From assembly GCA_964371245.1 (NCBI GenBank), contig CAYJKP010000001.1, positions 507,042 to 571,041 on the forward strand: a DNA stretch of 64,000 nucleotides. Direction: 5' to 3'. The position numbers and the translations under genes are program-made. The notes under the pieces are model-generated. The model saw only the letters and a list, made by a program, of their open reading frames with translations, had not been told where the DNA came from and made no database searches. The stretch is from an uncultured Gammaproteobacteria bacterium. GTDB lineage: Bacteria; Patescibacteriota; Patescibacteriia; JAHIZJ01. This document shows positions 20,134 through 47,034 of the stretch, piece after piece; position 1 is the first letter of the stretch; each line of letters opens with the position of its first letter.

Positions 20134-21600
20134 TTAGGCGAACACCTCGTTTGTGTTGAAGGCCTGCTCGCAGTAGTGGCACTGGACGACTGGCGCGTCC
20201 CTGAATACGCGGAACCGGGGAAAACGAGCCGCCTGCGGATCGAGCCTGGTGATGCAGTTAGAGTTGGGGCAGCGTCCGACCGTGATCATCTCAGCATGCT
20301 GGACGCGCTGCTTGTGGAACTGGCCCTCGCGGAAGACGTTGAAAGTCGCATCCGGTGCGAGGACCCAGACGGCGGCCATTTGTTCAGGCTCGAGGTAACG
20401 GTGCGCCAGGACCAGCGTGTCTTTCCGCCCGCCGGCCACTCGGTGAGATTCGATCCCCTCGGTCAGAACCACGACTCCGTCCTGTTTCTGGCAGATGGAC
20501 TTGAGGACCGAACGGACCATCGATCCGACGCCGAACGGCAAATGATCGATGACCGTACCGTCAGAAATCCTCAGGAAATACCGTTCACGTTCCGCTTTCC
20601 TTTGAATCGCGTCGGCGATGGAACCACGGACTACCCCATCGATCAACGGGGCCGGTACGCTGATGTCGGTAACCTCGTCCAGGCTATTCAGCGAGTGGAG
20701 TAAAGCCGCCATGCGCGCTGGCACCCCCAGCCGCGCCTCCTCATCCATGATCACCTGCGGATGCATCCAGATCTCTGGATGGACTTCACCATCAGCGACT
20801 GGCTGTGGGTGCATAATCAGCACCTTGGGTCCAAGCATCTCAAGTACCGATGCGTTTACGACATAGCGTCCACGGACGCGGTCGTAATCGATCTGGCTGC
20901 CGAAACGTTCCCGCTGTACGCGCGTCACGTAGACGATGTCGCAGCCACGCAACGCCTCGATCGAGTCAGACACGATGACCCCAGGGTGGCCGTTAAGATA
21001 CCAGGGCTGAAGCGCGACCTCAGGCGAAGAAACGAGAACAATCCTGATGTCCGGGAACAACCAGAGCGCCTGGATGAGCGAGTGGATTGTCCGGCTGTTT
21101 TTCAGGTCACCGAGAAAACCGATGCTGAAATCCGACAGCCGGCCGAGCTTCCGCTTGATGGTCAGTAGATCGAGCAGCGCTTGGCTGGGATGCTGGTTGA
21201 TGCCGTCGCCGGCGTTATGCACGGCCGTGCGTAACCCATACCGACGATACATCTCGGCCAACCAGCGGGCCGAACCCTCAACCGGCATTCTCATGACGAG
21301 AACGCCAGCGTTGTAGCCCGATTCCATCCGCCCGAATGCCGACAGCGCCTCGCCTTTTGTCAGCGAGGTGCCCTCTTTGCCACTGATCGTCTTGTGCCTG
21401 AGCCGCAGCAACTGGGCCGCTTCGTCATACGAGTCGCATGTTCTCGTACTCGGTTCAGCGAAGAACAGCACCGCCTTCCGTCCGTCTCGCTGAGCCTGAG
21501 GTTTTCCGGAGAGCGCCGTGACGTCGCACGTTTCGGCTTCACTAAGAATCTGCTCGAGCCATTCGCGCGAAAAATCTGCCGCGCTGATCAGGTGTTTCAT
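20134..21600 (-). CDS. pyrB: Aspartate carbamoyltransferase catalytic chain fused to regulatory chain (PyrB-PyrI fusion)
   Basis: The N-terminal ~310 aa carry PyrB motifs (EPSTRT, NAGDGINQHPSQALLDL, GDLKNSRTIHSL, YVTRVQRER, HPQP). The C-terminal ~150 aa carry PyrI motifs (GTVIDHLP, CPNSNCI, CHYCEQ). The gene is visibly GC-rich. Confidence 0.75.
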   Translation of the reverse strand: MKHLISAADFSREWLEQILSEAETCDVTALSGKPQAQRDGRKAVLFFAEPSTRTCDSYDEAAQLLRLRHKTISGKEGTSLTKGEALSAFGRMESGYNAGVLVMRMPVEGSARWLAEMYRRYGLRTAVHNAGDGINQHPSQALLDLLTIKRKLGRLSDFSIGFLGDLKNSRTIHSLIQALWLFPDIRIVLVSSPEVALQPWYLNGHPGVIVSDSIEALRGCDIVYVTRVQRERFGSQIDYDRVRGRYVVNASVLEMLGPKVLIMHPQPVADGEVHPEIWMHPQVIMDEEARLGVPARMAALLHSLNSLDEVTDISVPAPLIDGVVRGSIADAIQRKAERERYFLRISDGTVIDHLPFGVGSMVRSVLKSICQKQDGVVVLTEGIESHRVAGGRKDTLVLAHRYLEPEQMAAVWVLAPDATFNVFREGQFHKQRVQHAEMITVGRCPNSNCITRLDPQAARFPRFRVFRDAPVVQCHYCEQAFNTNEVFA

Positions 21601-21667
21601 CCGTGTCTTCCCCCTTCCGTGATACTGTGTTTCGTGATGAAAAGATCAGGCTCGTCAGTCGACGGTC

Positions 21668-21698
21668 AAAAAAAATACCCCCGTATCGGGGGCTTTTT
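21668..21698. terminator. Bidirectional intrinsic terminator
   Basis: AAAAAAAA-ACCCCCG-TAT-CGGGGG-CTTTTT between the pyrBI start and the upstream gatB transcription unit. Confidence 0.5.
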
Positions 21699-21809: not shown

Positions 21810-22049
21810 CTAGGCTGCTTTTCTGACTTCCGGTTTTTCGCCCTTCGCACCATCGTCTGTTTCTTCATCGAGTGGTATTTCATAGCTTCCGTCCGTTTTT
21901 TGACGGAGCCCTTCTTCCGCAAGCCTCTTTTTATGCAGCCGCCGGTTGGCCCGATCAAGCTTCGCCTTATCGATCGGCGTCGGATCGCTGGCACTCTCCG
22001 AAAATTGGCCGAGTTTATATTTTTCTAAACCATCTCCTCGTTCGCTCAT
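21810..22049 (-). CDS. Hypothetical small charged protein
   Basis: 79 aa, Lys/Glu/Asp-rich, immediately downstream of gatB. Whether it is coding is uncertain. Confidence 0.3.
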   Translation of the reverse strand: MSERGDGLEKYKLGQFSESASDPTPIDKAKLDRANRRLHKKRLAEEGLRQKTDGSYEIPLDEETDDGAKGEKPEVRKAA

Positions 22050-30052: not shown

Positions 30053-30535
30053 CTAAGGGTTGATGATCTCGACGCCCTGGATACTCCCCTCGCCGACCGT
30101 ATACCGGATGGCGACTGGGCCTGGCGGACATCCGGTGACTTGTTCGGCCGCCTGGCGACCGCCGATGATGATCGCATTCGATGGCGCGTTGACCAGGAGT
30201 CTTGAGGCAGCTTCGAAATTGTCTTCGACCCCGGTGAAACACGTCATCGGCACACGATGCCCGCTGGCCAGACGAACCATGTCGTGCTCGGTCCGTCCTT
30301 CGAGATACTCTGGACCTCCGACCACCGGCGTCCAACGACCGACCATGAGTCCGAGCGCCTGAGAGATTTCTCGGAACCGGCGGCCGGTGCCGCAGATAAC
30401 GTGGCTCGGGCTCGATGGCAGTACCGCCTTCAATCGCCTGAGTTCGTAGAGGTCGGGCTCGGTCAATGCCGGATCGCCGCTCGGGCCCACCACAGCGCCG
30501 TGCGTGACGAAGTACACGTTACGGGTCTCGGCCAT
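30053..30535 (-). CDS. Hypothetical GC-rich protein (possibly histidine-phosphatase-like)
   Basis: 160 aa, N-terminus VYFVTHGA, markedly higher GC than the backbone. Functional assignment is weak. Confidence 0.35.
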   Translation of the reverse strand: MAETRNVYFVTHGAVVGPSGDPALTEPDLYELRRLKAVLPSSPSHVICGTGRRFREISQALGLMVGRWTPVVGGPEYLEGRTEHDMVRLASGHRVPMTCFTGVEDNFEAASRLLVNAPSNAIIIGGRQAAEQVTGCPPGPVAIRYTVGEGSIQGVEIINP

Positions 30536-30820
30536 TCGATCACCCCCTCCCTATTGAATAGCAGCGCCAACACAACTGGATAGACCCTCCATCCAGATTT
30601 CGCGCAGACAATGTACCGTATCATGCGCCCGTCGTCAATGCCTCACTATTGACACTGTCATATTTTCATGCTAATTTATCGCGTGATTCATATGCTCTTT
30701 CTCACCCGAACTCAGTAGTAACCAGGTTGTAACGTGAAGTTACTGCTTGTCGCTATAGAGATCACGGTCTAATAGGCTACCAACGTCTCACCGGAATCCA
30801 AAAGAGGGAGGTTCTTGGGT

Positions 30821-31585
30821 ATGCTAATTCGTTGTCAGGATCACCTGATCATCGTTTCTGAGGAAGGCGGCTCAATCCTGTACTGGCAGTGGGGACCGTA
30901 TGTCATTCTGGGTCCGACCCGGCTGGAGCGGATCGGCGATATTCTGAAGGTTCGCGGCGAATCCCATTGGTGCTTTCCCTATCACGGGACTGCGCCGGCG
31001 GGCAGCCCGTTCGAGGATGATCCGAAACACGGCTATCTGCGCGGCTTGCTCATGAATCCGGAGCGCCACCACAGCGAGCATGTCATTCACTCGGTAGCTT
31101 CGGTGATGAATGAGCTCTGGGACTGTCTCCTGCGCACCGAGGTGATGCTCCTGACCAACGGCCAGCCCGGTGATACGCTCGTTCATGGGCTGAAGTGCGC
31201 CTATCGGCAAGGCCGGTTTCCGCGATTCGCTGATCTGCCTGTCCTGCCGGCAGTTCATCCTTACTTCAGCACGGTCGGCGGGGCGACTGTTTCGATCGGC
31301 GGAAATAAGATCGGCCTGGACTGCGCGCAGCTTGGTCCGTTGCGGATCCCCCGTCGTGACCCGATTGTCGTCGAGCGTCCATTCGGACGGATCACGATGA
31401 TGGTCTCAGGCACCCACGACTGCGACTGGGTCGTGGTCTGGTCTGACCGGCCGGCTGACTATGTCTGCGTCGAGCCGATCTGGGCGGGTGAACCCGGCAC
31501 GTTCGGTACCCCTCAGCAGAAGACGTTCCTGAAGCCCGGCCAGACCATCGCGTGTGAGGTCCGGTACGAATTCGAGCCGAAGTAG
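30821..31585 (+). CDS. Aldose 1-epimerase-like (hexose-phosphate mutarotase-like) protein, GC-rich
   Basis: AGGGAGG SD 10 nt before the ATG. HWCFPYHG and beta-sandwich-like composition. Family assignment is tentative. Confidence 0.4.
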   Translation: MLIRCQDHLIIVSEEGGSILYWQWGPYVILGPTRLERIGDILKVRGESHWCFPYHGTAPAGSPFEDDPKHGYLRGLLMNPERHHSEHVIHSVASVMNELWDCLLRTEVMLLTNGQPGDTLVHGLKCAYRQGRFPRFADLPVLPAVHPYFSTVGGATVSIGGNKIGLDCAQLGPLRIPRRDPIVVERPFGRITMMVSGTHDCDWVVVWSDRPADYVCVEPIWAGEPGTFGTPQQKTFLKPGQTIACEVRYEFEPK

Positions 31586-31722: not shown

Positions 31723-33414
31723 CTACTTACGTAGCTTATCTTCCAGTTCACGCTCCTTCACCCGTTGCTTCGCTTCCGAATCAGCCCGCGCCCAATCATA
31801 TTGATTGTGGTCCACAAATTTCATATGCTCGGCTCGCCAAGCTGAACGCTCTTTTATTTTGTCATGAAGTGCCTGACAGACGCGGCGATAGGCAGGGTGG
31901 CCTTGCGGTCCGGTTCGCAATTCGAGCAAATGATAGGCTTCGCGTTCGTTAAACGCCAAGAGCCAGCGCACTTTTGATCCGTGCAGCGTGGCGTATTGCG
32001 CTTGCGTCGGGAAATCCTTTACTAAAACATTAAAAAGCGCGACTGACTTTTCGTGGCACGCTTGGATTTCTTTCTCAAACCCGGCCGTGACAATGTCCGG
32101 CGGCATGGTAAAGCCCAGCAAGGGTGAAAACTGCTGGCGCAATTGCGAAGTCATCCGATGCCGCATCAGATCCTTATAGACGCCGAAATCCGTGACCAAA
32201 TCAAAGGTGTAGGGATAGCCGGCTTCAAGCGCTCGATACGGCCGGTCGCGCCTGGTTTTCCGTTCGCCGACGTATCCTTGAATAACCCGGTTTTTCTGAT
32301 TATCGGTCATTTTTTCCACGATCTTCAGGATTTGCCGCAATGGCAGCCGGCAATACACATACAGCATCATTGCCAGGGTAACGGTATCAAAACGCTGCTG
32401 GAGGGCGTTTTTTACCTTATCAAGGGTGATATAGCCATCGTGAAGCTTGTGAGCAATGAAATTCTCACCATAATCGAGCATTGACACGTCTTCGTCTGTC
32501 ATCGGTTCAACAGGAGCAAAAAGCTCATCAGCCAGGTTGCGCATCGCCGTATCGTTCGCAGCCTGGTAATCGTTGACTCGAGCTCGGCGCACGTACGCTG
32601 GAATAATTTTTGCTAGTTCGCGGCTGCACGCCTCCCCGACGGTTCGCGCCTCAGGCAGCGGGCTGGAAATAAGGCTGCTGATCAGACTCTGGTAAAATCG
32701 GCCGTTACCGAACCAGCCGACATTTGTTTTCGTGGCCAAGGGCAGAATATACCGCAGGGTGTCGCAGGCGCGCGTCCGGATATCCATGTTGTAGGTGGTT
32801 TTGAACGCTTTCTGATCGGCCGGCTCTGTGAGATCATCATACCGCTGCTTGACCTTTGTCCCCTTGATGTCGTATTCAGCTTGTTTTAACGGTTTCAATT
32901 TCTGATAGAACTTTTTCATTGGCTCAATCAGGTCGCAATAGGTTTGAAAAAGAAAATCCATGGTTTCAACATAGGCCGGGCCGTGCTTCGAAGCAATGAT
33001 TTCCGGCGGACGGTAATACCGGTATTGGCCGTTTTCGTCCTGCTGGTCGTAAAACACATAGCGCGTCGACTGTTCAATCGGCGACCCGCCGATCCGGCAC
33101 TCCTCCAATTCCTTAGTCGCTAAGACTGAAATGTTTTCTGTTGACAAATGCGCGCCTTCCAGCTCGCCCACGGAATCGTCGCCGAACGCGATCAAGACGC
33201 GCTGGATCAATTCCTCGGCGTGGACCGGATCGACCACGCCTTCCTTGATGAATTCCTTGAGCAAGACTTCTCGAAACCCGCCCTTGGCTCGGCTGTAGCG
33301 CGCGTAGGCCGCACCCACCATGCCTTGCATCCCGGTCACGCAAAAAACGTCGCCGGTAGGGTCGGTTACGTATTTCTTGAGCAATTCAATTTCGTCTGGT
33401 TTGAAAAACGCCAT
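31723..33414 (-). CDS. thyX: ThyX-like FAD-dependent thymidylate synthase, long (~560 aa) form
   Basis: RHR-containing block LMRHRMTSQLRQQFS resembles the ThyX RHRxxS signature. The gene directly precedes dut. It is far longer than a canonical ThyX, so the call is tentative. Confidence 0.45.
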   Translation of the reverse strand: MAFFKPDEIELLKKYVTDPTGDVFCVTGMQGMVGAAYARYSRAKGGFREVLLKEFIKEGVVDPVHAEELIQRVLIAFGDDSVGELEGAHLSTENISVLATKELEECRIGGSPIEQSTRYVFYDQQDENGQYRYYRPPEIIASKHGPAYVETMDFLFQTYCDLIEPMKKFYQKLKPLKQAEYDIKGTKVKQRYDDLTEPADQKAFKTTYNMDIRTRACDTLRYILPLATKTNVGWFGNGRFYQSLISSLISSPLPEARTVGEACSRELAKIIPAYVRRARVNDYQAANDTAMRNLADELFAPVEPMTDEDVSMLDYGENFIAHKLHDGYITLDKVKNALQQRFDTVTLAMMLYVYCRLPLRQILKIVEKMTDNQKNRVIQGYVGERKTRRDRPYRALEAGYPYTFDLVTDFGVYKDLMRHRMTSQLRQQFSPLLGFTMPPDIVTAGFEKEIQACHEKSVALFNVLVKDFPTQAQYATLHGSKVRWLLAFNEREAYHLLELRTGPQGHPAYRRVCQALHDKIKERSAWRAEHMKFVDHNQYDWARADSEAKQRVKERELEDKLRK

Positions 33415-33421
33415 CCTGGTG

Positions 33422-33847
33422 TTACCGCCCGGTGCTGCCAAAACGGCCTTGTCCCCGCGCGGTTTCGCTTAATGTTTCGGTTTCAATGATGTCGACTCGC
33501 TCAACTGGCTGGATCAACAATTGGGCGATTTTATCGCCGGTTTTTATCTCGTGAACCTGCTGGCTGGTGTTTAACAGCACAATCACCAATTCGCCGCGAT
33601 AACCCGAATCAAGCACACCGGCCAAGCAATGAATGCCGTGTTTATGCGCCATTCCGCCTTTGTCCCAGATTAACCCGACGTATTTTTCAGAAAATTCAAA
33701 GGCTAAACCAGTAAAAAACGAACGGCGCTCGCCGGGCTGCAAGGAATAATCCTCACAGCTGCAAATGTCCAGTCCGGCATCACCGGGCTGGGCGTATTTC
33801 GGTATAATCGCCGCTGGTTTTAATTTCTTTACTTTCACCTTGGTCAT
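33422..33847 (-). CDS. dut: dUTP diphosphatase
   Basis: dUTPase motifs (DAGLDI, GLIWDKGGMA, GVLDSGYRGEL). Start at MTKVKVKK. Confidence 0.8.
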   Translation of the reverse strand: MTKVKVKKLKPAAIIPKYAQPGDAGLDICSCEDYSLQPGERRSFFTGLAFEFSEKYVGLIWDKGGMAHKHGIHCLAGVLDSGYRGELVIVLLNTSQQVHEIKTGDKIAQLLIQPVERVDIIETETLSETARGQGRFGSTGR

Positions 33848-33940: not shown

Positions 33941-35080
33941 CTAGGAACGCGGCTGAAATCGGGGTAGCAATTGCTCCATGATCTTCTTGATGCCACCGTA
34001 CTCAAGCTCGCCATAGGGCAGCATGGCAGGGCCGAAGAACCCCTGCTGGCGAAGACCGAGGGCCTTCTCCTGGACCTTGCGCCTGACCTCGTCCCAGGCC
34101 GGGTTGCCGAAGACGTCTTCGGCGCTGCGGCTGAACGTTCCGCCCGGCGCGAGGGAGAACGACATCGCCGACACAATCGGTAGACAGTATGGTCCCGTCA
34201 CGGCCGTGTTCTTGGGCACGGGCATGAGCGGCATGACGTGGCTGCCGCGCGCGCCGCCGGCCACGTAATGGCCGATCACCCAGGGCATGACCACCTCTTC
34301 CAGCGCCGGGAAGATCCCCTGGATGCGCACGATCGCCACCGGATCGTCCTTGCCGGTGTACCGGCCGGCGATGTTGTGCAGGCGCTGGGCCGAAACGGCA
34401 ACGGCCTGCTGCTTCGGAAACGCGCGGGAGTAGATCGCATCGATCGCGAACCGCTCATTGTCACGCAGCAGCGCGGCGATCGCATACAGATCTTCCGGCG
34501 CCTGGAGCGTGATGAGTGAATCGTGATCAGCCTGATCCATGTCGATGATCTGGAACGTGTAGCCCTGGCTCTGCCGGTCGGAGAGGATGAGTCCGCTCGA
34601 GTACATCGGATCGGCGAAGGCCAAATAGAACGGAAGGTTGTACGCGCCGGGGCCGCACTTGTCGGCCGCGAACACGACGAACGACTCGGCCGGACGACAG
34701 GTGCCAGCCGCCGTCGGGTCATGTTCGAATGTCAGCTCGGCCACGGCCGGTCCGGCACCGCGCAGATTGCCGGAGGGCGCGTCGACCAGAAGGTCCTGGC
34801 CAGCTGCATAGAGACCGCGCTTCTGGGCGTTACGCGTTGCCCCCAGAAACGCGTGGTGAACCAGTTCGAGGTGCACCACCTGGCTCAGCGGCCCGTGCAG
34901 ATGGGCCAGCACGCAGTTGATGTCATCCCCGGTGAACATAGTCAGTCCATCGAGAATTGTCTTGCGGCTGACCGCCTCCCGCACTGCGCTCTGGACGGTG
35001 GCCATCATTTCCGATGATGGCCGCGTATGTCCACCGATTGATCCAACGTCCGCCTTGAGACAAGAAAGAGTGACCTTCAT
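33941..35080 (-). CDS. Fructose-1,6-bisphosphate aldolase/phosphatase (archaeal-type class V FBPase)
   Basis: N-terminus MKVTLSCLKADVGSIGGHT matches the FBP aldolase/phosphatase family start. About 380 aa, very GC-rich, strong AGGAGG SD. Confidence 0.7.
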   Translation of the reverse strand: MKVTLSCLKADVGSIGGHTRPSSEMMATVQSAVREAVSRKTILDGLTMFTGDDINCVLAHLHGPLSQVVHLELVHHAFLGATRNAQKRGLYAAGQDLLVDAPSGNLRGAGPAVAELTFEHDPTAAGTCRPAESFVVFAADKCGPGAYNLPFYLAFADPMYSSGLILSDRQSQGYTFQIIDMDQADHDSLITLQAPEDLYAIAALLRDNERFAIDAIYSRAFPKQQAVAVSAQRLHNIAGRYTGKDDPVAIVRIQGIFPALEEVVMPWVIGHYVAGGARGSHVMPLMPVPKNTAVTGPYCLPIVSAMSFSLAPGGTFSRSAEDVFGNPAWDEVRRKVQEKALGLRQQGFFGPAMLPYGELEYGGIKKIMEQLLPRFQPRS

Positions 35081-35111
35081 GAGAGTCACCTCCTCTGTCG
35101 TGGGCCGAGAA

Positions 35112-35143
35112 GCAAAATAACACACAACCCTTCTCTGAGGGTT
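35112..35143 (-). terminator. Intrinsic terminator ending the long ribosomal/dikinase-like operon
   Basis: Stem AACCCT/AGGGTT followed on the minus strand by a T-rich tract (GTGTGTTATTTTG). Confidence 0.4.
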
Positions 35144-35207: not shown

Positions 35208-35723
35208 TTATTCGGCTGCCAAGTTCTTGTAGAGCGAGTGGACTTCTTCGCTAAAACAAGCGATTATTACTCTCTTTATGCTCGTATGTTTTTGAATGAA
35301 TTGACGAATCTCTCGCAGGGCAATCGGCGCCGCTATATCGACTGGAAATCGGTATGCTCCCGTGCTGATTGACGGAAAGGCGATCGTCTTCACTCCATTT
35401 TCCACGGCGAGTGTAAGTGAATTACGGTAGCACGAGGCTAATTGGTCTGCTTCGCCGCGCGTCCCGCCAGTCCAGACCGGCCCGACCGTATGGATGATGA
35501 ATTTCGCCGGCAATTTATAGCCTTTGGTAATTTTCGCTTCGCCAGTCGGACAGCCGCCGATTTTTTCGCATTCCTTCAATAGCTCTGGTCCGGCTGCCCG
35601 GTGGATCGCTCCATCCACTCCCCCGCCTCCCAACAAACTTGAGTTGGCTGCATTGACGATCGCATCAACATGAAGCGTGGTGATGTCGGCTTTAATAATT
35701 TCAATCCGTCTATTTGCCATCAT
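35208..35723 (-). CDS. Macro domain protein (O-acetyl-ADP-ribose deacetylase/MacroD-like)
   Basis: Motifs [23 protein letters not shown] and GEAKIT...HTVGP. 171 aa. Confidence 0.8.
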
Positions 35724-37228
35724 TATCGTATTTTCCTGACTAAGCCGTTCGCCGCGTCAATTTCAACCAGATCGCCGTCTTTTAAAACCCGCATGGCCAT
35801 GCGCGTTCCGACCACACAGGGTATTTTCAGCTCCCGGGCAATGATCGCCGCATGCGACGTCAGCCCGCCCTCATCGGTCACAATCGCTCCGGCTTTGTGC
35901 ATGTAGGGAACGAAATCAGGCCGCGTCATGTAGGTCAGCAGTATCTCCCCCGGCCGCAGATTCTTGCCATGCTTTGACGGCGTTTCGATTTTGCGAATAA
36001 TGCCACGCAGGACGCCTGGCGATGCACCGATGCCATGCAAAACCGTCGTGTTGGCCGGCACATTCATACCCGAAATCCGTTTCCAGATTCGCTCATACTG
36101 CTGTCCGCTGACCATGCCCTCGGCACCGTTCGTAAACGCATAATAGAGACAACCGTTTTTTCGGCGTTTCAATTCCGCGCTGGCCACACGTCTTCCTCGG
36201 TAGACGGCAAAGAGTTCATCCGGCGTGAGGTGCCAGATTTCTGTCCTGGTATAACCGAGCTGCTTGGCAAATACACTGATAAATTTCTGGCACCAATAGT
36301 TGGCGATCAGGTTAGCCTGTTTCCGCTCATCTTGCCAATGTCCGGCAAATCCGATCGAGCGCAGAATTTTTATTTCGGTCGTCGTTAGCCGCGTGTGGTT
36401 TTTTGCTTTCCGTTGTAGCGTGATCGTATGTTTTTGGTAGCGTTGTAATTCGCGCGCCCGCTGACGCAAAGCAGTACGTGGACGGGCAATGTAGGACCGC
36501 AGTTTTTGAAAAAAATGATCATTGGTTAATGGCACAGTGTTGCGATAATCAAAATAGATCCAAAAAAACTTTCGCTGAATATGCTCAAGCGCTCGATACT
36601 GTTTCGGCCATTGTTTTCGAAATTCATCCATTTTCCTCGGCAGCCGCTTCCCTTCCAATCCCAGCGCCAGTTCGAGCAGAGGCAGCTCGGCGCGTTGAAG
36701 AAATGATGGTTTCGGCGCGCGGGTAAAGATAACGATGTCGGAATCCAGTTGCTTGTACTCGGCGTAGCGCCGTTTTAGTTGCCGTACGAATTTATCCCCG
36801 CCCAGCGAATAATATTCAGTAATCAGCGGGAGGCTATATTCTCGAAGGTAAATATGATAAAAGCGCCGAAATTCTTTCGACGGCTGTTTTGTAATATCAA
36901 GGCGCTCCAACCGGCTGATTTCGCGGTAAAATTCCCGTTTGCGCTCCAACCAGCACCGGTAGACGCGCTGGACGTATTCGGGCTGTCGGAAGCACCAATA
37001 CCCTTTATCTTCAAATTCCTGCTCGTCGTAGATCCAATACGATTTCAGACCGTTCTGCGTGGAAACAACGGCGATTTTCTCAGCGCCCAATTTCGGAAAT
37101 TGCCGGCGGAGCACGGAGGTGATCGCCTGTCCGGGAATGATCGCCGTGAACGGCACGAAGACCCCGCCCTGGATCACCCAGTGCGTGGTACCGGAAAATA
37201 ATTTCTTTTCGGCCGCGGCAATATTCAT
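35723..37228 (-). CDS. Swivel-domain protein A: unknown basic/aromatic N-terminal domain plus C-terminal PEP-utilizing-enzyme phosphohistidine domain
   Basis: C-terminus GIGASPG...[25 protein letters not shown]...[10 protein letters not shown] matches the PpsA/PPDK/rifampin-phosphotransferase His domain. Its start overlaps the gene B stop (ATGA). Confidence 0.6.
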
Positions 37229-38250
37229 ACTTTTGTAATGATACCACGATTGGCGTCCACTTTGATCCGATCGCCGGTTTGTAAAACCTGCGTCGCTACT
37301 TTTGCCCCGATAATGCACGGGATTCGGAGCTCGCGCGACACGATCGCCGCATGGCAGGTTATTCCTCCTTCATCGGTAACGATCGCCGATGATTTTTTCA
37401 TGGCGCCAAGATAGCGTGGATCCGTCATCGGCGTTATAAGTATTTCTCCATTCTTTATCGAGCGCAGATCGCGCGGATGCAATATTATCCGCGCTTGTCC
37501 AAATACTTTACCACCATAGGCGCATTGTCCTGTTATCATGCTGGCATCGATAGTTCGTTCAATTTCTTGATATAATTCCTTAATTTTCTTTCTGGCATTG
37601 ATACCGGTTAACACCTTTTTCTTATTTCGACCATATATGACGCATGATTGTTTCCGACGTTTCTGAATATTTGTCGGCAATGTACCCGTAGCCAAATACC
37701 GATAATATTCTACGTCAATTAGGTATCGCAAGGTATCTTTTCCGAGCCCCCGTTCTTTCTCAAAACGCGCGAGCAACGTCGCGTGATGGCTGATCCCAAT
37801 TTTATGGACCAGCTCGTATTTTCTCCTTGTCCGCATCAGCGTTTGTAGCAGGGCCGCGCTGCATCGTTCTCTCAAGCGCGGCACGTAAGCGGCCACAAAA
37901 ATAATGTCAGTAAATTTGCGGATAAATTCTTCTGACTCCTTTAAGGCAGCGAGCGTGTTACCATGTTTTCCTCTGACGAAATTCTGAAAAGACATGCGCT
38001 CGCGTTCCCGTGCCGTAATAAGTTTGTTCAGATTATTTAAAGAATGATTTTTCAGCCAGCCAAGAGCATATCCGCGATAATCTGTTTCTGCCAGCCAGTG
38101 ATTGAACACGCCATTCTCAACGGTTACGTACATCGTATGCGGGACATAATGAAAATACCGGCACAACCGCTGAGACAATAATTCATCCATGACAAAGGTG
38201 GTGGCTAGGACTGTATATGACCGACGATGTTTTTCATAACGCACGCTCAT
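37225..38250 (-). CDS. Swivel-domain protein B (paralog; unknown N-terminus plus PEP-utilizer His domain)
   Basis: C-terminus TDEGGITCHAAIVSRELRIPCIIGA...TGDRIKVDA. Confidence 0.6.
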   Translation of the reverse strand: MSVRYEKHRRSYTVLATTFVMDELLSQRLCRYFHYVPHTMYVTVENGVFNHWLAETDYRGYALGWLKNHSLNNLNKLITARERERMSFQNFVRGKHGNTLAALKESEEFIRKFTDIIFVAAYVPRLRERCSAALLQTLMRTRRKYELVHKIGISHHATLLARFEKERGLGKDTLRYLIDVEYYRYLATGTLPTNIQKRRKQSCVIYGRNKKKVLTGINARKKIKELYQEIERTIDASMITGQCAYGGKVFGQARIILHPRDLRSIKNGEILITPMTDPRYLGAMKKSSAIVTDEGGITCHAAIVSRELRIPCIIGAKVATQVLQTGDRIKVDANRGIITKV

Positions 38251-38263
38251 TATATTCCGACAA

Positions 38264-39712
38264 TTATCGTTTTATGATATTGCCCTTATTCGCATCCACC
38301 TCCACTCTGTCACCGTCTTTTAAAACGTGCGTTGCCGTTTGTGTCCCGATAACGCACGGAATGTTCAATTCGCGCGAGATGATCGCCGCATGACAGGTCA
38401 AGCCACCCTCATCGGTCACAATAGCCGCGGCGCGTTTCAATAACGGAACGTATTCCGGCCGGGTCATATGGGCGACGATGATATCGCCGGTTTTAAACTT
38501 TTTAAAATCCGCCTTCGTTTCAACGATTTTTACGCGGCCAATGACTGACCCTGCGTTTGCGATCGTGCCGTGGATAGCCTTTCCCTTATCGCTCTGGGTC
38601 ATGACATGGTACAGCTGCTTTGCTTCGCGTCCGTACAGCCAGCCGCATTTCTGGTCTGCGGTACAGAGGAAGGCACTGAAAGCCAGCCTCTTTTTCAGCG
38701 TCTGTTTTTGCGCCGATGTCAGACGCCAGCCCGTCAGATCGATTGGCGTTACCATGCCGGCTAGCTGCTGAGTAATATGGTTTTCTTTGGCTAACCGTTT
38801 GAGTATTTGGAACAGATGCGCGTTGGTAATATTTGTCGCGTATTTTTTGCGTTCATCGCGCCAGTCGCTCATTTGCCGAAAAAGATAGAAGACGTTGTCT
38901 AATTTCTTTGGTACGTGTTTCGCTTTCAAGATTTTCTGTATCTGCCGACGATTTTTCCTAATTGTACGGTTAATCTTTACCAGTTCAGTCTTCAAGGATT
39001 TCAATTTTTTTACGTCTTTTTGTATTATATGGTAGAAATATCGATCATCTAAAATATGCACATATGCCCAATTATTTTTGTACCAGCTGAATTTTTGACG
39101 ATGTCGTTTTACCCCCTGGGTAATGTCGCGATCAGTTGCCAACCGTTTCACGAGTTGCAGTCGTGATTCCAGTTCCTCCTGGACGAAACTCAATTTTGTC
39201 GGCGCAATCAGTGTTTGAATTTCTTTTGCGGATAAATTGCATTTTGCCAGCGTAATTTCTTGTTGAAGCGCCTTTTCCCCGTCGGGATCAGACCATTCGA
39301 TTAACACGGCGGTGATCCAGTGCGCCAAAACGTTTTTCATATGCCACGCTAAAAAACTCCGCAGCTCTGCGTCAGACCATGATGATATCGGCTTTTGGAA
39401 GCGTCTTTGATATTCGATTAAAACCCGCTGCATCTGTTCGCGCCATAATGCGATCCGGCGATCAATCGTTGCGCTATCCCGTTTTTGCCGTTGTATTACC
39501 TGCCAAAGCAAACGATATTCCTTCTCCCGATCAAAATACGCAATATTACGATCGCCGCATTGAAAATAAATATTTCGGTCATACCCCAATGTTTCATTCA
39601 TCGAGAGATACGGGGTAAAACCGTAGAATAGCCAAATCGCACCGCCTTGTTTATACCAGCGCCGTTTCGTAATTGTCCTGATGTTCGGTTTGATCTTGCT
39701 AATAATCTTCAT
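38264..39712 (-). CDS. Swivel-domain protein C (paralog; unknown N-terminus plus PEP-utilizer His domain)
   Basis: C-terminus TDEGGLTCHAAIISRELNIPCVIGT...KDGDRVEVDA. 482 aa. Confidence 0.6.
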   Translation of the reverse strand: MKIISKIKPNIRTITKRRWYKQGGAIWLFYGFTPYLSMNETLGYDRNIYFQCGDRNIAYFDREKEYRLLWQVIQRQKRDSATIDRRIALWREQMQRVLIEYQRRFQKPISSWSDAELRSFLAWHMKNVLAHWITAVLIEWSDPDGEKALQQEITLAKCNLSAKEIQTLIAPTKLSFVQEELESRLQLVKRLATDRDITQGVKRHRQKFSWYKNNWAYVHILDDRYFYHIIQKDVKKLKSLKTELVKINRTIRKNRRQIQKILKAKHVPKKLDNVFYLFRQMSDWRDERKKYATNITNAHLFQILKRLAKENHITQQLAGMVTPIDLTGWRLTSAQKQTLKKRLAFSAFLCTADQKCGWLYGREAKQLYHVMTQSDKGKAIHGTIANAGSVIGRVKIVETKADFKKFKTGDIIVAHMTRPEYVPLLKRAAAIVTDEGGLTCHAAIISRELNIPCVIGTQTATHVLKDGDRVEVDANKGNIIKR

Positions 39713-40794
39713 ATCTTCCTCACAATCCCCTTAGTAGCATCAACTACCACCCGATCGCCGTCTTTGAAAACCTTTGTGGCGAACTTTGTCCCGACAATGC
39801 CTGGGATGCCAAACTCACGGGTAATAACCGCCGCGTGGCTTAACATACCGCCTCCCTCATCTGTCACCACTGCCTTAACTCGTTTGAAATGCTTGACGTC
39901 ATCCGGCCGAGTCATATTTGTGACGTAGACTGGCCGAGTTGGCCAGCTTTGTCTGTTTAGGTTACACACCACAACGCCGACAATCCTGCCCGGTGAAACT
40001 GGCGTGCCCTGGATTAGTCGGCTGGCCGGTTTCTGAACCTGAAGCTGCCTTCGAACCCGACTGACAACGGCGCTATCGGTTTGAACAACTTCTCGGCTAG
40101 ATGCCCAAAGATAAACATAGCCTTTTCTACGGCGTCGAAGCTCATCCTTTGATACGGTCAGTCGTTTTTGCCGAAGTGTTTGCAATAACTCAGAACGCGT
40201 CATCATTCGACTGAGTGAGATATTGAGTCCGTATTCCGTAAATGCTCTCTGAAGTGCCCGCGTTATTAAGTGCTCGCAACGCGGATAGCTTTTCGCGCTA
40301 GTGTCGCGCTCCTTGCCTAATCTGGACAAATCAATCCGGGGAAAAGGACTTTGTCCAGACTTCGCAAAATCAAGGTATCTCCAAAATAAATTATATGTCC
40401 CGATTCCGCCTAACAGCTTTGGGTAATCCGTGAGAACAAACTGAATGAATTGAACTGGGTCAGTTTTTACGAGGCCTTCATATCTTTTAAGACCCACGGC
40501 AAAATCGTGGCACTGCTGAAACGCCTGACGACGCGTATTTCTAAGCCAGCCGGGTTGATGGGCTAATTTAGACGAAACCTCACGAACAATGTAGTCACTA
40601 TTAACTAATGAATGGAAGCCTCGATTGTTTCCGACGCCACCAAGATGCAAATATGACATCCCGGATATTTGACGAGCATTCGTACAAAATCCCTGAGCAA
40701 TGCAGCTCAGCGATACCAAAGGAAGCGCTCGATATACACCACCCTCCGATCGCAAGCCCATCTTTTCCAATCGTTGAGATAAGTCCAACATCAT
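39709..40794 (-). CDS. Swivel-domain protein D (paralog; unknown N-terminus plus PEP-utilizer His domain)
   Basis: C-terminus TDEGGGMLSHAAVITREFGIPGIVGTKFATKVFKDGDRVVVDATKGIVRKI. ATGA overlaps with both C and E. Confidence 0.55.
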   Translation of the reverse strand: MMLDLSQRLEKMGLRSEGGVYRALPLVSLSCIAQGFCTNARQISGMSYLHLGGVGNNRGFHSLVNSDYIVREVSSKLAHQPGWLRNTRRQAFQQCHDFAVGLKRYEGLVKTDPVQFIQFVLTDYPKLLGGIGTYNLFWRYLDFAKSGQSPFPRIDLSRLGKERDTSAKSYPRCEHLITRALQRAFTEYGLNISLSRMMTRSELLQTLRQKRLTVSKDELRRRRKGYVYLWASSREVVQTDSAVVSRVRRQLQVQKPASRLIQGTPVSPGRIVGVVVCNLNRQSWPTRPVYVTNMTRPDDVKHFKRVKAVVTDEGGGMLSHAAVITREFGIPGIVGTKFATKVFKDGDRVVVDATKGIVRKI

Positions 40795-41876
40795 ATTTTC
40801 CTCACAATCCCCTTGGTCGCATCCACTTCCACCCGATCGCCGTCTTTGAAAACCTTTGTGGCGAACTTTGTCCCGACAATGCACGGTATTTTCAACTCTC
40901 GAGCCACAATCGCCGCATGGCAGGTCAAACCGCCTTCGTCAGTGATGATTGTTTTGGCATTGCGCAGATACTGGGAAAACCGAACCGTCGTCATCGGTGT
41001 TACGATCACGTATCGCCCGCGGATCTTTTTCAGATCTCGCAATGTTCGGACCACCCGGGCAATGCCAATGACGGGCTTTCGCGCGGCGTACGCGGTTTGG
41101 CCATGGAGAGCATCAACATCGTTGCTTTTCCTGCCCGGTACTTCACGCTCGACTTGTTTCTGTATTTGTTTCGCGCGCTGGCCAATAAACAATTGTATTT
41201 TCCCACCGATCGCTTGCAATGCATACAGACGGTACCGTTTTTCAAGTTCTGACGCTGAAACCACTGATCTGTTTCGGCGCAACGACTCAACCAATTCCTG
41301 GCAATTCATAAACATGACTCGCTTTTTTTCTAGCCTCAGCGTAACACCGAGTGACGCCGCAAACGCCGGGATGACAGTATCGTCAATCCAGGTTAATGTC
41401 TTGCCACAATAATCTTTGGTGTAGCCGCAATCAGCGATTGTTGCGCGCGTAAAGGCATGGCGATGCGTATCGACGAGCGTGGGAAAGCGATAAACCGAAT
41501 ACATCTCTCGATAATATTTGTAGAATTCTATCAGTAATTCGCTCAGAACGGTGGTAGCTAGATTTTTTTCAAGCTGCATATAAATACGACGGATCTGACG
41601 GCTGCGTTTCGCAAAAATCCTTCGTATTTTAGAATTCAACTGGTTAATAGTTCTTCCTTGGCACGAGTGGAGGAACCGCAGGAACGAACGCGAATCGCGT
41701 TCCGAAAAATAACTTTTTTCAATATCCTTTTCAGAAATAAAAAGCTGGTCGCGATAGCCCCAGCCGAGCGCTTTCTTCATATCGCGGACATACCCCTCGA
41801 GACCGAGGCTCAGAATGAAATACGGAAAGCCCTCCCGGGTAAAGACGGGGGTCCATTGTATGCTTCTATTTCCCAT
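40791..41876 (-). CDS. Swivel-domain protein E (paralog; unknown N-terminus plus PEP-utilizer His domain)
   Basis: C-terminus [50 protein letters not shown]. Its last ~95 nt are about 90% identical to the gene D 3' end. Confidence 0.6.
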   Translation of the reverse strand: MGNRSIQWTPVFTREGFPYFILSLGLEGYVRDMKKALGWGYRDQLFISEKDIEKSYFSERDSRSFLRFLHSCQGRTINQLNSKIRRIFAKRSRQIRRIYMQLEKNLATTVLSELLIEFYKYYREMYSVYRFPTLVDTHRHAFTRATIADCGYTKDYCGKTLTWIDDTVIPAFAASLGVTLRLEKKRVMFMNCQELVESLRRNRSVVSASELEKRYRLYALQAIGGKIQLFIGQRAKQIQKQVEREVPGRKSNDVDALHGQTAYAARKPVIGIARVVRTLRDLKKIRGRYVIVTPMTTVRFSQYLRNAKTIITDEGGLTCHAAIVARELKIPCIVGTKFATKVFKDGDRVEVDATKGIVRKI

Positions 41877-46488: not shown

Positions 46489-47031
46489 TTACCAGCGGGT
46501 ATCCTTTATTTTCAAATAATACCCGATGTGGTTGGCAATGATATGCAAGGCAAACCCCACAATAACCGACATAATAATGATCTGAACGGTCAGCTGGACA
46601 AATAGACACGCGAAGATAAGGCCGCCGATGATATAGTCAATCTGGTCAAAGGGCAGCCAGCGCGCACCCGGCGCCAGACGAAAACGGCGCTTGAAAAACG
46701 CACGAACCAGATCACCAAACAAAGCGCCAAATCCAATCACAAAGCCATAGTATGACGGAATGTCAGGATAATTAAAAAAACTCAAATACTGAAACGAAGG
46801 AATGGCATAAACCGCTTGTTGCAGTATAAAAACGCCGCCCCCGGACAACGTGCCGATCAAAAAGCCGCGCCACGTCTTGTGTTCACCGAAGAGCGGCTGG
46901 CCTAATAATTTTTTCCCGCCGTCTACCGGCCGCGCCAAAACCTGCCATTGTTTTTTAACGATTGAGGCGCTGACGTTGGCCACGCCCATTGGCGCGATAA
47001 ACCAGAAGCATTGGAGAATAAATTGGACCAT
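46489..47031 (-). CDS. CTP-transferase-like integral membrane protein (CarS/DUF46-like, CdsA-related)
   Basis: 180 aa, polytopic. C-terminal block GDLVRAFFKRRFRLAPGARWLPFDQIDYIIGG resembles the CarS/CdsA cytidylyltransferase motif. Confidence 0.5.
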   Translation of the reverse strand: MVQFILQCFWFIAPMGVANVSASIVKKQWQVLARPVDGGKKLLGQPLFGEHKTWRGFLIGTLSGGGVFILQQAVYAIPSFQYLSFFNYPDIPSYYGFVIGFGALFGDLVRAFFKRRFRLAPGARWLPFDQIDYIIGGLIFACLFVQLTVQIIIMSVIVGFALHIIANHIGYYLKIKDTRW

Positions 47032-47034
47032 AGT

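What the first reader, a model, noticed from the sequence alone, without database searches (positions are those of the whole stretch)
20134..21600. Single-polypeptide PyrB-PyrI (catalytic plus regulatory ATCase) fusion, GC-rich and without neighbouring pyrimidine genes
The 488-aa ORF carries all PyrB catalytic motifs. It is followed in-frame by a PyrI-like allosteric domain and the zinc domain CPNSNCI...CHYCEQ. Aspartate carbamoyltransferase catalytic and regulatory chains are normally separate polypeptides. The gene is conspicuously GC-richer than its flanks (miaA, gatB). It is not accompanied by pyrC/pyrD/pyrE/pyrF/carAB in this window. Small-genome CPR-like bacteria generally lack de novo pyrimidine synthesis. 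This therefore looks like a laterally acquired, architecturally unusual ATCase, and its role may be other than a full de novo pathway.
Basis: partly seen in the sequence, partly recalled or inferred. Interest (0 to 1): 0.55.

Follow-up and report, generated by a model that had tools for sequence, protein, structure and literature searches.

The report
Single-chain regulated aspartate carbamoyltransferase in CPR bacterium
This gene really does join the catalytic and regulatory chains of aspartate carbamoyltransferase in one protein, but such fusions are already known, this one belongs to an old family found in tiny-genome (CPR) bacteria, and relatives carry it inside complete pyrimidine-synthesis operons, so it is most likely an ordinary first step of pyrimidine synthesis.

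Summary
ORF 20134-21600 (-) encodes 488 aa with PyrB (2-301), a 38-aa linker and PyrI (344-486), all above Pfam thresholds. The identical protein occurs on 21 independently assembled contigs, so it is not a frameshift artefact. No other de novo pyrimidine gene lies in the 64 kb, and the gene is GC-rich (0.594 against 0.503).

Fused PyrB-PyrI has been known since 1998 (Thermotoga maritima; NCBIfam NF009916). This protein is not in that family. It belongs to a separate clade of at least 49 fused proteins named from CPR bacteria (94% bootstrap).

The gene sits in the same miaA-gatB slot in relatives down to 32% identity, so it is an old resident, not a recent insertion. Catalytic, aspartate-binding, zinc and most effector residues are invariant, and dN/dS is about 0.05.

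In sister subclades the fused gene lies in pyrC-pyrBI-OTC-prs-pyrE-pyrF-pyrDK operons or next to carbamate kinase. It is therefore most likely a working allosteric ATCase of the de novo pathway.

Two points stay open: whether this genome holds the other steps, and why the GC excess appears in some relatives only. Replacement by an allele from another CPR lineage is possible.

The parts
20134..21600 (-). pyrBI: single ORF of 488 aa, fused aspartate carbamoyltransferase (catalytic plus regulatory chain)
   Evidence: ORF; four colinear Pfam domains; identical protein on 21 contigs; dN/dS 0.057 against the 85%-identical allele P0002
21154..21597 (-). carbamoyl-phosphate-binding domain (aa 2-149): S51-T52-R53-T54, S79, K82, R104, H137, Q140
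20698..21129 (-). aspartate-binding domain (aa 158-301): R170, R227, Q229, H264-P265-Q266-P267
   Evidence: PF00185, 60.7 bits; R170, R227, Q229 and P267 invariant; model matches ATCase catalytic chains at target-normalised TM-score about 0.9, rmsd about 2 A
20572..20685 (-). linker (aa 306-343), predicted strand 319-327 and helix 328-337
   Evidence: AF2 model, pLDDT 72-91 in this stretch; the gap between the two halves is 30-51 aa in 87 fused proteins; shared CPR linker pattern ending in YF.PI..GTVIDH; dN/dS 0.19, the least constrained part
20311..20571 (-). PyrI allosteric (nucleotide-binding) domain (aa 344-430): D352, H353, K393, T419, N421, K430
   Evidence: PF01948, 38.4 bits; aligned with E. 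coli PyrI D19, H20, K56, T82, N84 and K94; D352, K393 and K430 invariant; dN/dS 0.07
20143..20280 (-). PyrI zinc domain (aa 441-486): C444, C449, C474, C477 and the CPNSNCI interface motif
   Evidence: PF02748, 35.8 bits; four Cys invariant; aligned with E. coli C109, C114, C138 and C141
21607..21618 (-). purine-rich ribosome-binding stretch GGAAGGGGGAAG, 6 nt before the ATG (inferred)
   Evidence: read from the sequence; the homologues start at the same MKH(L/V/I)IS
21667..21693 (-). GC-rich hairpin GCCCCCG-ATA-CGGGGGT followed by a run of 8 T: probably the terminator of the upstream gatB-orf79 unit, abutting the pyrBI promoter region
   Evidence: terminator scan; a hairpin plus T-run stands 82-93 nt before the ATG in L001, L005 and L003 too; no Rfam match

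Best explanation
What it is. The gene encodes a working, self-contained allosteric aspartate carbamoyltransferase. The N-terminal 305 residues are a normal ATCase catalytic chain, which would form trimers with active sites shared between neighbouring chains. A linker of about 38 residues tethers a normal PyrI regulatory chain, made of a nucleotide-binding allosteric domain and a four-cysteine zinc domain that docks on the catalytic chain.

What it does. The enzyme condenses carbamoyl phosphate with aspartate to give N-carbamoyl-aspartate, the committed step of de novo UMP synthesis. Nucleotide binding to the tethered regulatory domain tunes its activity.

Where it comes from. It is a member of an old clade of fused ATCases whose named members are CPR bacteria. 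This clade is distinct from the Thermotoga-type fusion. The gene has been inherited in the miaA-gatB locus and is transcribed as its own unit.

Shown: the architecture, the conservation, purifying selection, the synteny, and the operon association in relatives.

Inferred: enzyme activity, the effector, the oligomeric state, and that the remaining pathway genes lie elsewhere in this roughly 1-Mb genome.
For: - Domains: four colinear domains above Pfam thresholds. The best PDB relatives are ATCase catalytic and regulatory chains.
- Structure: AF2 model with pLDDT 90.6 and pTM 0.88. Its catalytic part superposes on solved ATCases at target-normalised TM-score about 0.9.
- Conservation: residues for carbamoyl phosphate (S51, R53, T54, R104, H137, Q140), for aspartate (R170, R227, Q229), K82, the four zinc cysteines and the effector-site residues D352, K393 and K430 are invariant in 27 homologues of 32-85% identity.
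- Selection: dN/dS is 0.049 (PyrB), 0.07 (allosteric domain) and 0.19 (linker).
- Not an artefact: the same ORF occurs in 21 assemblies.
- Synteny: it is conserved with relatives at 48-49%, 38% and 32% identity.
- Clade: 94% bootstrap for the clade of 49 fused proteins and 99% for the window's subclade.
- Pathway association inside that clade. L105, L100, L118, L121 and L128 (about 38% identical to the window protein) have dihydroorotase - pyrBI - ornithine carbamoyltransferase - prs - pyrE - pyrF - pyrD::pyrK. L122 has pyrK-pyrD-pyrF next to pyrBI. L110 has the window's synteny with carbamate kinase (TIGR00746, 373.6 bits, above cutoff) between pyrBI and gatB.
- Precedent: the fused T. maritima enzyme is described as an allosteric ATCase (title of Chen et al. 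1998, as cited in PMC4581275).
Against: - No pyrC, pyrD, pyrE, pyrF, carAB or carbamate kinase lies in this 64-kb window or within 10 kb of the gene in the window's own subclade (L001, L005, L129, L130).
- 93% of Patescibacteria genomes are reported to lack de novo nucleotide synthesis (bioRxiv 10.64898/2026.06.21.733656).
- The protein scores below the curated equivalog cutoffs for PyrB (219.6 against 236.95) and PyrI (76.1 against 148.55).
- Three positions depart from the canonical sequence: E. coli R56 is Cys, HPLPR is HPQPV, and the position of E. coli PyrI K60 is Val.
- No activity, effector or oligomer data exist for this clade.
Confidence: 0.7

Rival explanations
1. Orphan enzyme. The genome lacks the other five steps. 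The fused ATCase is kept for something else, for example making carbamoyl-aspartate that a host or partner completes, or running with a carbamate kinase or OTC as part of carbamoyl-phosphate metabolism.
For: - No other pyr gene lies in the 64 kb, nor within 10 kb in four relatives of the same subclade.
- Most Patescibacteria lack the pathway.
- The conserved neighbours are salvage and deoxynucleotide genes: tmk, thyX, dut, dCMP deaminase, and tdk or dcd in relatives.
- OTC and carbamate kinase sit next to pyrBI in some relatives.
Against: - pyr genes are scattered in many ordinary genomes, so missing neighbours say little.
- Strong purifying selection acts on both the catalytic and the regulatory residues.
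- Sister subclades put the same fused gene inside complete pyr operons.
- I know of no pathway that consumes carbamoyl-aspartate apart from dihydroorotase and its breakdown (own knowledge).
Confidence: 0.18
2. The allele, not the locus, was acquired laterally. A pyrBI copy from a GC-richer CPR relative replaced the resident copy in the miaA-gatB slot and is still shifting towards the genome's composition. This can be true together with the best explanation.
For: - GC excess of +0.093, mostly at third codon positions, about 3 sd above the control.
- The excess is sporadic. It is present in the window, L098, L001, L005, L012 and L003. It is absent in L105, L121, L122, L110, L102 and L129.
- A member of the same subclade sits in a genome stretch of about 64% GC (L129).
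- PyrBI of L012 is only 32% identical to those of L110 and L102, although flanking gatB and miaA are 50-64% identical.
- For the window the disagreement is mild: PyrBI is equidistant to L130, L001 and L005, while the flanks group it with L001 and L005.
Against: - The overall order of divergence of pyrBI follows the flanks.
- dS between the window allele and its 85%-identical relative is already about 1.7, yet both keep the excess. That fits a gene-specific constraint as well.
- No donor was identified, and only distance trees were made.
Confidence: 0.35
3. Recent transfer from outside the CPR: a foreign, GC-rich ATCase inserted between miaA and gatB.
For: - GC excess.
- The best PDB and HMM relatives of both halves are archaeal by small margins.
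Against: - The same slot is occupied in relatives down to 32% identity.
- The protein lies in a clade of fused proteins whose named members are CPR, with 94% bootstrap.
- Mean distances to all outside groups are alike, 1.30-1.35.
Confidence: 0.03
4. Assembly or annotation artefact: two adjacent genes, pyrB and pyrI, merged by a sequencing error.
For: Adjacent pyrB-pyrI pairs are the norm.
Against: - The identical 488-aa product occurs on 21 contigs from separate assemblies.
- At least 87 fused representatives have a gap between the halves of 30-51 aa.
- The linker is modelled with confidence.
Confidence: 0.01
5. A transcarbamylase with another acceptor substrate that keeps a PyrI-like domain.
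For: - Scores below the equivalog cutoff.
- Deviations at STRTC and HPQPV.
Against: - The aspartate-specific residues R170, R227 and Q229 are invariant.
- A separate, clear OTC (TIGR00658, 448.9 bits) sits next to the fused gene in relatives, so the two are not redundant.
- PyrI is known only with ATCase (own knowledge).
Confidence: 0.04

Closest known systems
Thermotoga maritima PyrBI, the fused allosteric ATCase (Chen et al. 1998, J Bacteriol 180:6389; NCBIfam NF009916 / PRK13376)
   Same: One polypeptide with PyrB at the N-terminus and PyrI at the C-terminus. The alignment to the 525-position model is colinear, 45-487 against 55-523. It is described as an allosteric enzyme (title as cited in PMC4581275).
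   Different: The score is only 123.5 bits against a cutoff of 800, lower than the score of the PyrB half alone against the generic TIGR00670 model (219.6). None of 10 other fused CPR or DPANN proteins reaches the cutoff either; the best is 265. It is therefore a separate lineage and probably a separate fusion event. I could not obtain a Thermotoga sequence to place in the tree, and the paper itself is not held.
Class B ATCase with separate chains (E. coli PyrB + PyrI; archaeal M. jannaschii, P. abyssi, S. acidocaldarius)
   Same: All four domains are present. Catalytic chains are 35-37% identical and the E. coli regulatory chain 33%. The catalytic and zinc residues and the CPNSNCI interface motif are the same.
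   Different: The chains are joined covalently by a linker of about 38 aa. E. coli R56 is Cys, HPLPR is HPQPV, and PyrI K60 is Val. In 30 of 30 ordinary loci checked the two genes are separate ORFs.
Fused PyrB-PyrI of DPANN archaea (Woesearchaeota TKJ17475.1, MBI4448927.1; Pacearchaeota MEM4703439.1; Nanoarchaeota MEK6845454.1)
   Same: Same domain order and length (490-540 aa), and also from small-genome organisms. The gene stands alone in the three archaeal fused loci examined: Woesearchaeota L094 and L096, and the unnamed L097.
   Different: Their linkers follow another pattern, '(W/F).ELP(I/V)...KKG'. Grouping with the CPR clade had 0% bootstrap support. These genes show no GC excess.
PyrB plus zinc-domain-only proteins of about 360 aa (e.g. 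Candidatus Cryptobacteroides CCX56582.1)
   Same: A PyrB fused at its C-terminus to part of PyrI.
   Different: They lack the allosteric nucleotide-binding domain and belong to ordinary Bacteroidales-type PyrB.

Membership tests
ATCase catalytic chain (PyrB; Pfam PF02729 + PF00185; TIGR00670) | Both Pfam domains above the gathering score, colinear | tested here: met
   84.7 bits (cutoff 29.9) and 60.7 bits (cutoff 29.4), residues 2-149 and 158-301
ATCase catalytic chain (PyrB; Pfam PF02729 + PF00185; TIGR00670) | Score above the curated equivalog cutoff of TIGR00670 | tested here: not met
   219.6 bits against 236.95; NF002032 gives 210.2 against 263. A divergent member.
ATCase catalytic chain (PyrB; Pfam PF02729 + PF00185; TIGR00670) | Carbamoyl-phosphate site: S-T-R-T, R105, H134, Q137, and S80 and K84 from the neighbouring chain (E. 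coli numbering) | tested here: met
   S51, T52, R53, T54, S79, K82, R104, H137 and Q140 are aligned and invariant or nearly invariant in the family. The fifth motif residue (R56) is Cys and varies across the family.
ATCase catalytic chain (PyrB; Pfam PF02729 + PF00185; TIGR00670) | Aspartate-specific residues R167, R229, Q231 | tested here: met
   R170, R227 and Q229 are invariant in 27 homologues
ATCase catalytic chain (PyrB; Pfam PF02729 + PF00185; TIGR00670) | HPLPR loop | tested here: inconclusive
   HPQPV here. H and the two P are kept, while the L and R positions vary within the fused clade (HPLPR, HPMPY, HPGPR).
ATCase catalytic chain (PyrB; Pfam PF02729 + PF00185; TIGR00670) | ATCase fold | tested here: met
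   AF2 model with pLDDT 90.6; Foldseek against PDB gives target-normalised TM-score 0.87-0.92 and rmsd 1.7-2.2 A to P. abyssi, Arabidopsis and E. coli ATCase
ATCase catalytic chain (PyrB; Pfam PF02729 + PF00185; TIGR00670) | Catalyses carbamoyl phosphate + aspartate -> carbamoyl-aspartate | not testable with these tools
   Needs an enzyme assay
ATCase regulatory chain (PyrI; PF01948 + PF02748; TIGR00240) | Both Pfam domains above the gathering score | tested here: met
   38.4 bits (cutoff 25) and 35.8 bits (cutoff 23.4). TIGR00240 gives 76.1, under its cutoff of 148.55.
ATCase regulatory chain (PyrI; PF01948 + PF02748; TIGR00240) | Four zinc-binding cysteines (E. coli C109, C114, C138, C141) | tested here: met
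   C444, C449, C474 and C477 are invariant
ATCase regulatory chain (PyrI; PF01948 + PF02748; TIGR00240) | Nucleotide-site residues (E. coli D19, H20, K56, K60, T82, N84, K94; list from own knowledge) | tested here: inconclusive
   D352, H353, K393, T419, N421 and K430 are aligned and conserved, but the K60 position is Val. Which nucleotide binds cannot be told.
Thermotoga-type bifunctional PyrB/PyrI (NCBIfam NF009916) | Single chain, PyrB then PyrI | tested here: met
   Colinear match 45-487 against 55-523 of 525
Thermotoga-type bifunctional PyrB/PyrI (NCBIfam NF009916) | Score above the curated cutoff (800 bits) | tested here: not met
   123.5 bits. It works like this family but is not a member.
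CPR-type fused ATCase clade (defined here) | The PyrB domain falls in one clade that holds only fused proteins | tested here: met
   Neighbour-joining with 100 bootstraps on 179 sequences: 94% for the 49-member clade, 99% for the window's subclade. Distance method only.
CPR-type fused ATCase clade (defined here) | Shared linker pattern ending in (Y/F)F.(P)I..GTVIDH | tested here: met
   Linker alignment. The window has RYFLRISDGTVIDH. A DNA pattern for this motif retrieved 18 further fused genes from metagenomes.
De novo pyrimidine gene set | Other pathway genes in the same genome or locus | tested here: inconclusive
   Absent from the 64-kb window. Present next to the fused gene in sister subclades. 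The rest of this genome could not be read.
Class B holoenzyme (two catalytic trimers bridged by regulatory dimers) | Quaternary structure and cooperative, nucleotide-sensitive kinetics | not testable with these tools

The most novel reading that the evidence does not exclude
In this organism the fused ATCase stands alone. The genome would have no dihydroorotase, dihydroorotate dehydrogenase, OPRTase or OMP decarboxylase, yet would keep a strongly constrained, nucleotide-regulated ATCase inside a cluster of pyrimidine deoxynucleotide and salvage genes. The enzyme would then serve a shared or non-canonical route, such as handing carbamoyl-aspartate to a host or managing carbamoyl phosphate. A related reading is that the fused gene, alone or with the compact pyr operon, moves between CPR lineages and restores pyrimidine autonomy.
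Probability: 0.18. Interest if true: 0.6.

Novelty: new member of a known kind. Interest (0 to 1): 0.3.

Why it matters
The finding shows that some Patescibacteria keep a fully regulated entry enzyme of pyrimidine synthesis, although this group is usually described as dependent on others for nucleotides. In relatives it sits in a very compact operon with further fusions (pyrD::pyrK), which marks the minority of lineages that make their own pyrimidines.

The clade is a natural single-chain version of a textbook allosteric enzyme. No fused chain appeared among the ATCase matches in the PDB. It could therefore be a handy model for how tethering the regulatory chain changes assembly and regulation.

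For annotation, these proteins fall under the curated cutoffs and are named inconsistently: 'regulatory subunit', 'catalytic subunit' or 'hypothetical protein'. If the genome turned out to lack the other steps, the interest would rise markedly.

Tried and rejected
It returned only ordinary pyrB-pyrI pairs and no CPR genome. I used those loci as controls and named references.
- A first BLOSUM-distance tree put 76 of 83 fused proteins, CPR and DPANN together, on one side of a split. With corrected distances and bootstrapping this grouping had 0% support, so I dropped the idea of one fusion shared by CPR and DPANN. The linkers also differ.
- My early reading that the GC excess was a clade-wide property was corrected when more loci showed it to be sporadic.
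- I looked for a leader or attenuator RNA. Rfam finds nothing. The conserved hairpin plus T-run is more simply the terminator of the upstream unit.
- I tested whether the gatB-pyrBI spacer is a decayed carbamate kinase. It has no similarity to one.
- I tried to detect other pyr genes of this genome by searching with a CPR PyrE and looking for hits on the 0.92- or 1.18-Mb contigs. The 120 listed hits were all at least 50% identical and none lay on those contigs, so this says nothing either way.
- The Chen et al. 1998 paper is not held.
- The Woesearchaeota gene table is cut before the nucleotide columns. Only the gene-gain lists could be used.
Full report
**1. The observation**

The minus-strand ORF 20134..21600 starts with ATG and encodes 488 aa. 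Pfam places four domains in order, all above their gathering scores:
- OTCace_N at 2-149
- OTCace at 158-301
- PyrI at 344-430
- PyrI_C at 441-486

Against PDB sequences, residues 1-301 match ATCase catalytic chains. The best are M. jannaschii and P. abyssi at about 170 bits, and E. coli scores about 129. Residues 338-487 match regulatory chains, best S. acidocaldarius, then E. coli.

The protein with exactly this sequence was called on 21 contigs from many independent assemblies, several of 0.2-1 Mb and two above 1 Mb. A sequencing frameshift that merged two genes is therefore excluded.

As a control, 30 ordinary pyrB-pyrI loci from named bacteria and archaea all have two separate ORFs.

The GC claim also holds:
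- The gene has GC 0.594 and GC3 0.726, against means of 0.503 and 0.568 for 55 genes of the window. It ranks fourth.
- Its excess over its flanks is +0.093. In 46 ordinary genomes pyrB differs from its flanks by +0.019 +/- 0.024.

Pfam scans of 55 ORFs show no pyrC, pyrD, pyrE, pyrF, carA, carB or carbamate kinase in the window. A tblastn search with pyr proteins taken from CPR relatives finds none either.

The window does hold thymidylate kinase, a long ThyX, dUTPase and dCMP deaminase. The statement 'no neighbouring pyrimidine genes' is therefore true only for the de novo pathway.

**2. What the protein looks like**

The following residues are invariant in the family, or in a few cases conserved in at least 90% of its members:

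| Function | Window residues | E. coli equivalents |
|---|---|---|
| Carbamoyl-phosphate site | S51-T52-R53-T54, R104, H137, Q140 | S52-T55, R105, H134, Q137 |
| Lysine lent by the neighbouring chain | K82 | K84 |
| Aspartate-specific residues | R170, R227, Q229 | R167, R229, Q231 |
| Zinc cysteines | C444, C449, C474, C477 | C109, C114, C138, C141 |
| Allosteric site | D352, H353, K393, T419, N421, K430 | D19, H20, K56, T82, N84, K94 |

There are three departures from the canonical sequence:
- Cys stands in place of the last Arg of STRTR. This position varies in the family.
- HPQPV stands in place of HPLPR.
- Val stands at the position of PyrI K60.

The protein scores under the curated equivalog cutoffs: TIGR00670 219.6 against 236.95, and TIGR00240 76.1 against 148.55. 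It is a divergent member.

An AlphaFold2 model built on the family alignment is confident throughout (pLDDT 90.6, pTM 0.88). This includes the linker, which is modelled as a strand (319-327) and a helix (328-337). The catalytic part superposes on solved ATCases at a target-normalised TM-score of about 0.9 and about 2 A rmsd. The matches listed were all catalytic chains of about 300 aa, none a fused chain.

Against the 85%-identical allele P0002, selection is purifying in every part:

| Part | dN/dS |
|---|---|
| PyrB | 0.049 |
| Allosteric domain | 0.07 |
| Linker | 0.19 |

Both halves are under strong purifying selection.

**3. How common the fusion is**

An exhaustive profile-free search of 1.84 billion representatives found 6,665 relatives. 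The gap between the halves is 30-51 aa.

Source names fall in two groups:
- CPR bacteria: Patescibacteria group, Kerfeldbacteria, Buchananbacteria
- DPANN archaea: Woesearchaeota, Pacearchaeota, Nanoarchaeota

Fused ATCase as such is not new. Two reviews cite Chen et al. [quoted passage not shown] NCBIfam has a curated model for it, NF009916.

The window protein reaches only 123.5 bits against that model's cutoff of 800. Ten other fused CPR and DPANN proteins reach at most 265. These proteins work like the Thermotoga enzyme but are not members of that family.

**4. Phylogeny**

I made a bootstrapped neighbour-joining analysis of 179 PyrB domains:

| Grouping | Bootstrap support |
|---|---|
| Window's subclade | 99% |
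| Clade of 49 fused proteins whose named members are CPR | 94% |
| CPR and DPANN fusions together | 0% |

An earlier uncorrected tree had suggested the CPR-DPANN grouping, and I withdraw it. The two sets also have different linker patterns.

The CPR clade sits on a long branch. Its mean distances to all outside groups are nearly equal, 1.30-1.35, so no donor lineage can be named.

**5. History of the locus**

The order dnaE - hyp - thrS - (hyp) - miaB - miaA - [pyrBI] - gatB - tmk ... thyX - dut of the window recurs in relatives of decreasing identity:

| Locus | PyrBI identity to the window |
|---|---|
| L001 | 48% |
| L005 | 49% |
| L130 | 49% |
| L102 and L110 | 38% |
| L012 | 32% |

PyrBI identities broadly follow those of gatB, miaA, thrS and dnaE. 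The presence of pyrBI in this slot therefore predates these lineages, and the gene was not recently inserted.

The GC excess is sporadic among relatives:
- It is large (+0.07 to +0.13) in the window, L098, L001, L005, L012 and L003.
- It is absent in L105, L121, L122, L110, L102 and L129. L129 is a stretch of about 64% GC from a genome of the same subclade.
- It is small in L130, L095 and the archaeal loci.

In L012 the PyrBI protein is only 32% identical to those of L110 and L102, although the flanking genes are 50-64% identical. For the window the disagreement between gene and flanks is mild.

Replacement of the resident allele by one from a GC-richer CPR relative is thus a live possibility. 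A gene-specific compositional constraint is the alternative. I could not decide between them.

**6. Function**

I scanned JGI metagenomes with a DNA pattern for the clade's junction motif, YFxP[IV]xxG...DH. The scan gave 30 loci, and 18 carry the fused gene.

- Six loci (L100, L105, L116, L118, L121, L128) belong to the subclade of P0019, and their fused protein is about 38% identical to the window's. In these loci an ornithine carbamoyltransferase follows pyrBI directly (TIGR00658, 448.9 bits in L105).
- In L105 the whole set lies on one strand: a short dihydroorotase, pyrBI, OTC, PRPP synthetase, PyrE, PyrF (TIGR02127, 271.8 bits) and a PyrD::PyrK fusion of 522 aa. L121 holds the same genes within about 12 kb, and L100, L118 and L128 hold parts of the set.
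- L122 has pyrK-pyrD-pyrF next to pyrBI.
- L110 has the window's own synteny, with a carbamate kinase (TIGR00746, 373.6 bits, above cutoff) between pyrBI and gatB. This suggests where the carbamoyl phosphate comes from.

These associations, together with the conserved active site, make the ordinary role the best explanation. The protein is the regulated first committed step of de novo UMP synthesis.

In the window's own subclade the gene always stands alone. It appears to have its own transcription unit. A strong hairpin plus T8 at 21667-21693, about 77 nt upstream of the ATG, probably ends the gatB-orf79 unit, and similar hairpins stand at the same distance in L001, L005 and L003.

**7. What remains uncertain**

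I could not read the rest of this genome.
- A recent preprint reports that 93% of Patescibacteria genomes lack de novo nucleotide synthesis and that the genes present are scattered across the phylogeny.
- For Woesearchaeota subgroup J, which includes the B3_Woes genome carrying a fused gene, pyrB, pyrI, pyrC, pyrE and pyrF all appear in the lists of genes gained along that lineage.

I put about 0.7 on a functional ATCase in a pathway completed elsewhere in the genome, and about 0.18 on a true orphan. The effector nucleotide, the oligomeric state and the activity are all inferred.

**8. Verdict**

But the architecture is a known kind, the gene is an old resident of a CPR-specific clade, and its relatives tie it to the normal pathway.

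- Novelty: new member of a known kind.
- Interest: modest, 0.3. It would rise to about 0.6 if the genome proved to lack the other steps.

Noticed in passing
window 35723-41876 (-), with 41866-43290: Five tandem paralogous ORFs (531, 341, 482, 391 and 361 aa) each end in a PEP-utilizers mobile phosphohistidine domain (PF00391). Their N-terminal parts have no Pfam hit. The next ORF (474 aa) has no hit at all. Similar genes lie near dut and thyX in relatives L001 and L005.
   Followed up: no
window 31723-33441 (-): ThyX is 572 aa with two Thy1 stretches, about twice the usual length. It is 569 and 565 aa in L001 and L005, and 431 aa in L012.
   Followed up: no
window 33941-35125 (-); 30053-30535 (-); 30815-31585 (+): The class V fructose-1,6-bisphosphatase (PF01950, the archaeal type) is the GC-richest gene of the window (0.63, GC3 0.78). 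Two nearby ORFs without a Pfam hit are also 0.61-0.63. Together with pyrBI these are the four compositional outliers.
   Followed up: no
window 46489-47499 (-): A CarS-like protein (CDP-archaeol synthase family, PF01864) lies next to a CDP-alcohol phosphatidyltransferase.
   Followed up: no
window 21810-22049 (-): A 79-aa acidic and basic ORF lies between gatB and pyrBI. It is called in every assembly of this species but is absent from L001 and L005. It is not a remnant of the carbamate kinase that occupies this position in L110.
   Followed up: partly
window 21667-21693 (-); L001, L005, L003 at 82-93 nt before the pyrBI ATG: A GC-rich hairpin followed by a T-run stands at a conserved distance upstream of pyrBI in four diverged genomes. 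The T-run runs into a TTGAC-like hexamer. It is probably a terminator abutting the promoter, and there is no Rfam match.
   Followed up: partly
L105 3469-10864 (-); L121 2703-14183 (+); L100, L118, L128: A compact pyrimidine operon in CPR-type contigs. It holds a short dihydroorotase (306-325 aa), fused pyrBI, ornithine carbamoyltransferase, prs, pyrE, pyrF and a PyrD::PyrK fusion of 522 aa. No CPSase is present, and the OTC next to the ATCase may relate to carbamoyl-phosphate supply.
   Followed up: partly
L110 4643-5578 (-): A carbamate kinase (TIGR00746, 373.6 bits) lies between pyrBI and gatB in a relative that has the window's synteny.
   Followed up: partly
P0286-P0405 (relatives of L105 5927-6610): The PyrE of that operon belongs to a family shared at 50% identity or more by CPR (Nealsonbacteria, WS5) and DPANN or other archaea (Micrarchaeota, Altiarchaeota). 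This hints at exchange of pyr genes between these small-genome groups.
   Followed up: no
P0040, P0042, P0125 and others (about 360 aa): PyrB fused only to the PyrI zinc domain, without the allosteric domain. It is common in Bacteroidales (Candidatus Cryptobacteroides, 432 contigs).
   Followed up: no
L012 10001-11599: This PyrBI (P0027, 532 aa) is only 32% identical to those of L110 and L102, although flanking gatB and miaA are 50-64% identical. It is 13 GC points above its flanks. It is a candidate for allele replacement at a conserved locus.
   Followed up: partly
L054 4474-10918: A contig binned as Candidatus Saccharibacteria appears from ORF sizes and order to carry an unfused pyrC-carA-carB-pyrB operon (ORFs of 415, 352, 1080 and 305 aa). 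Only the pyrB was confirmed by a profile. This would be a different solution from the fused clade, or a binning error.
   Followed up: no
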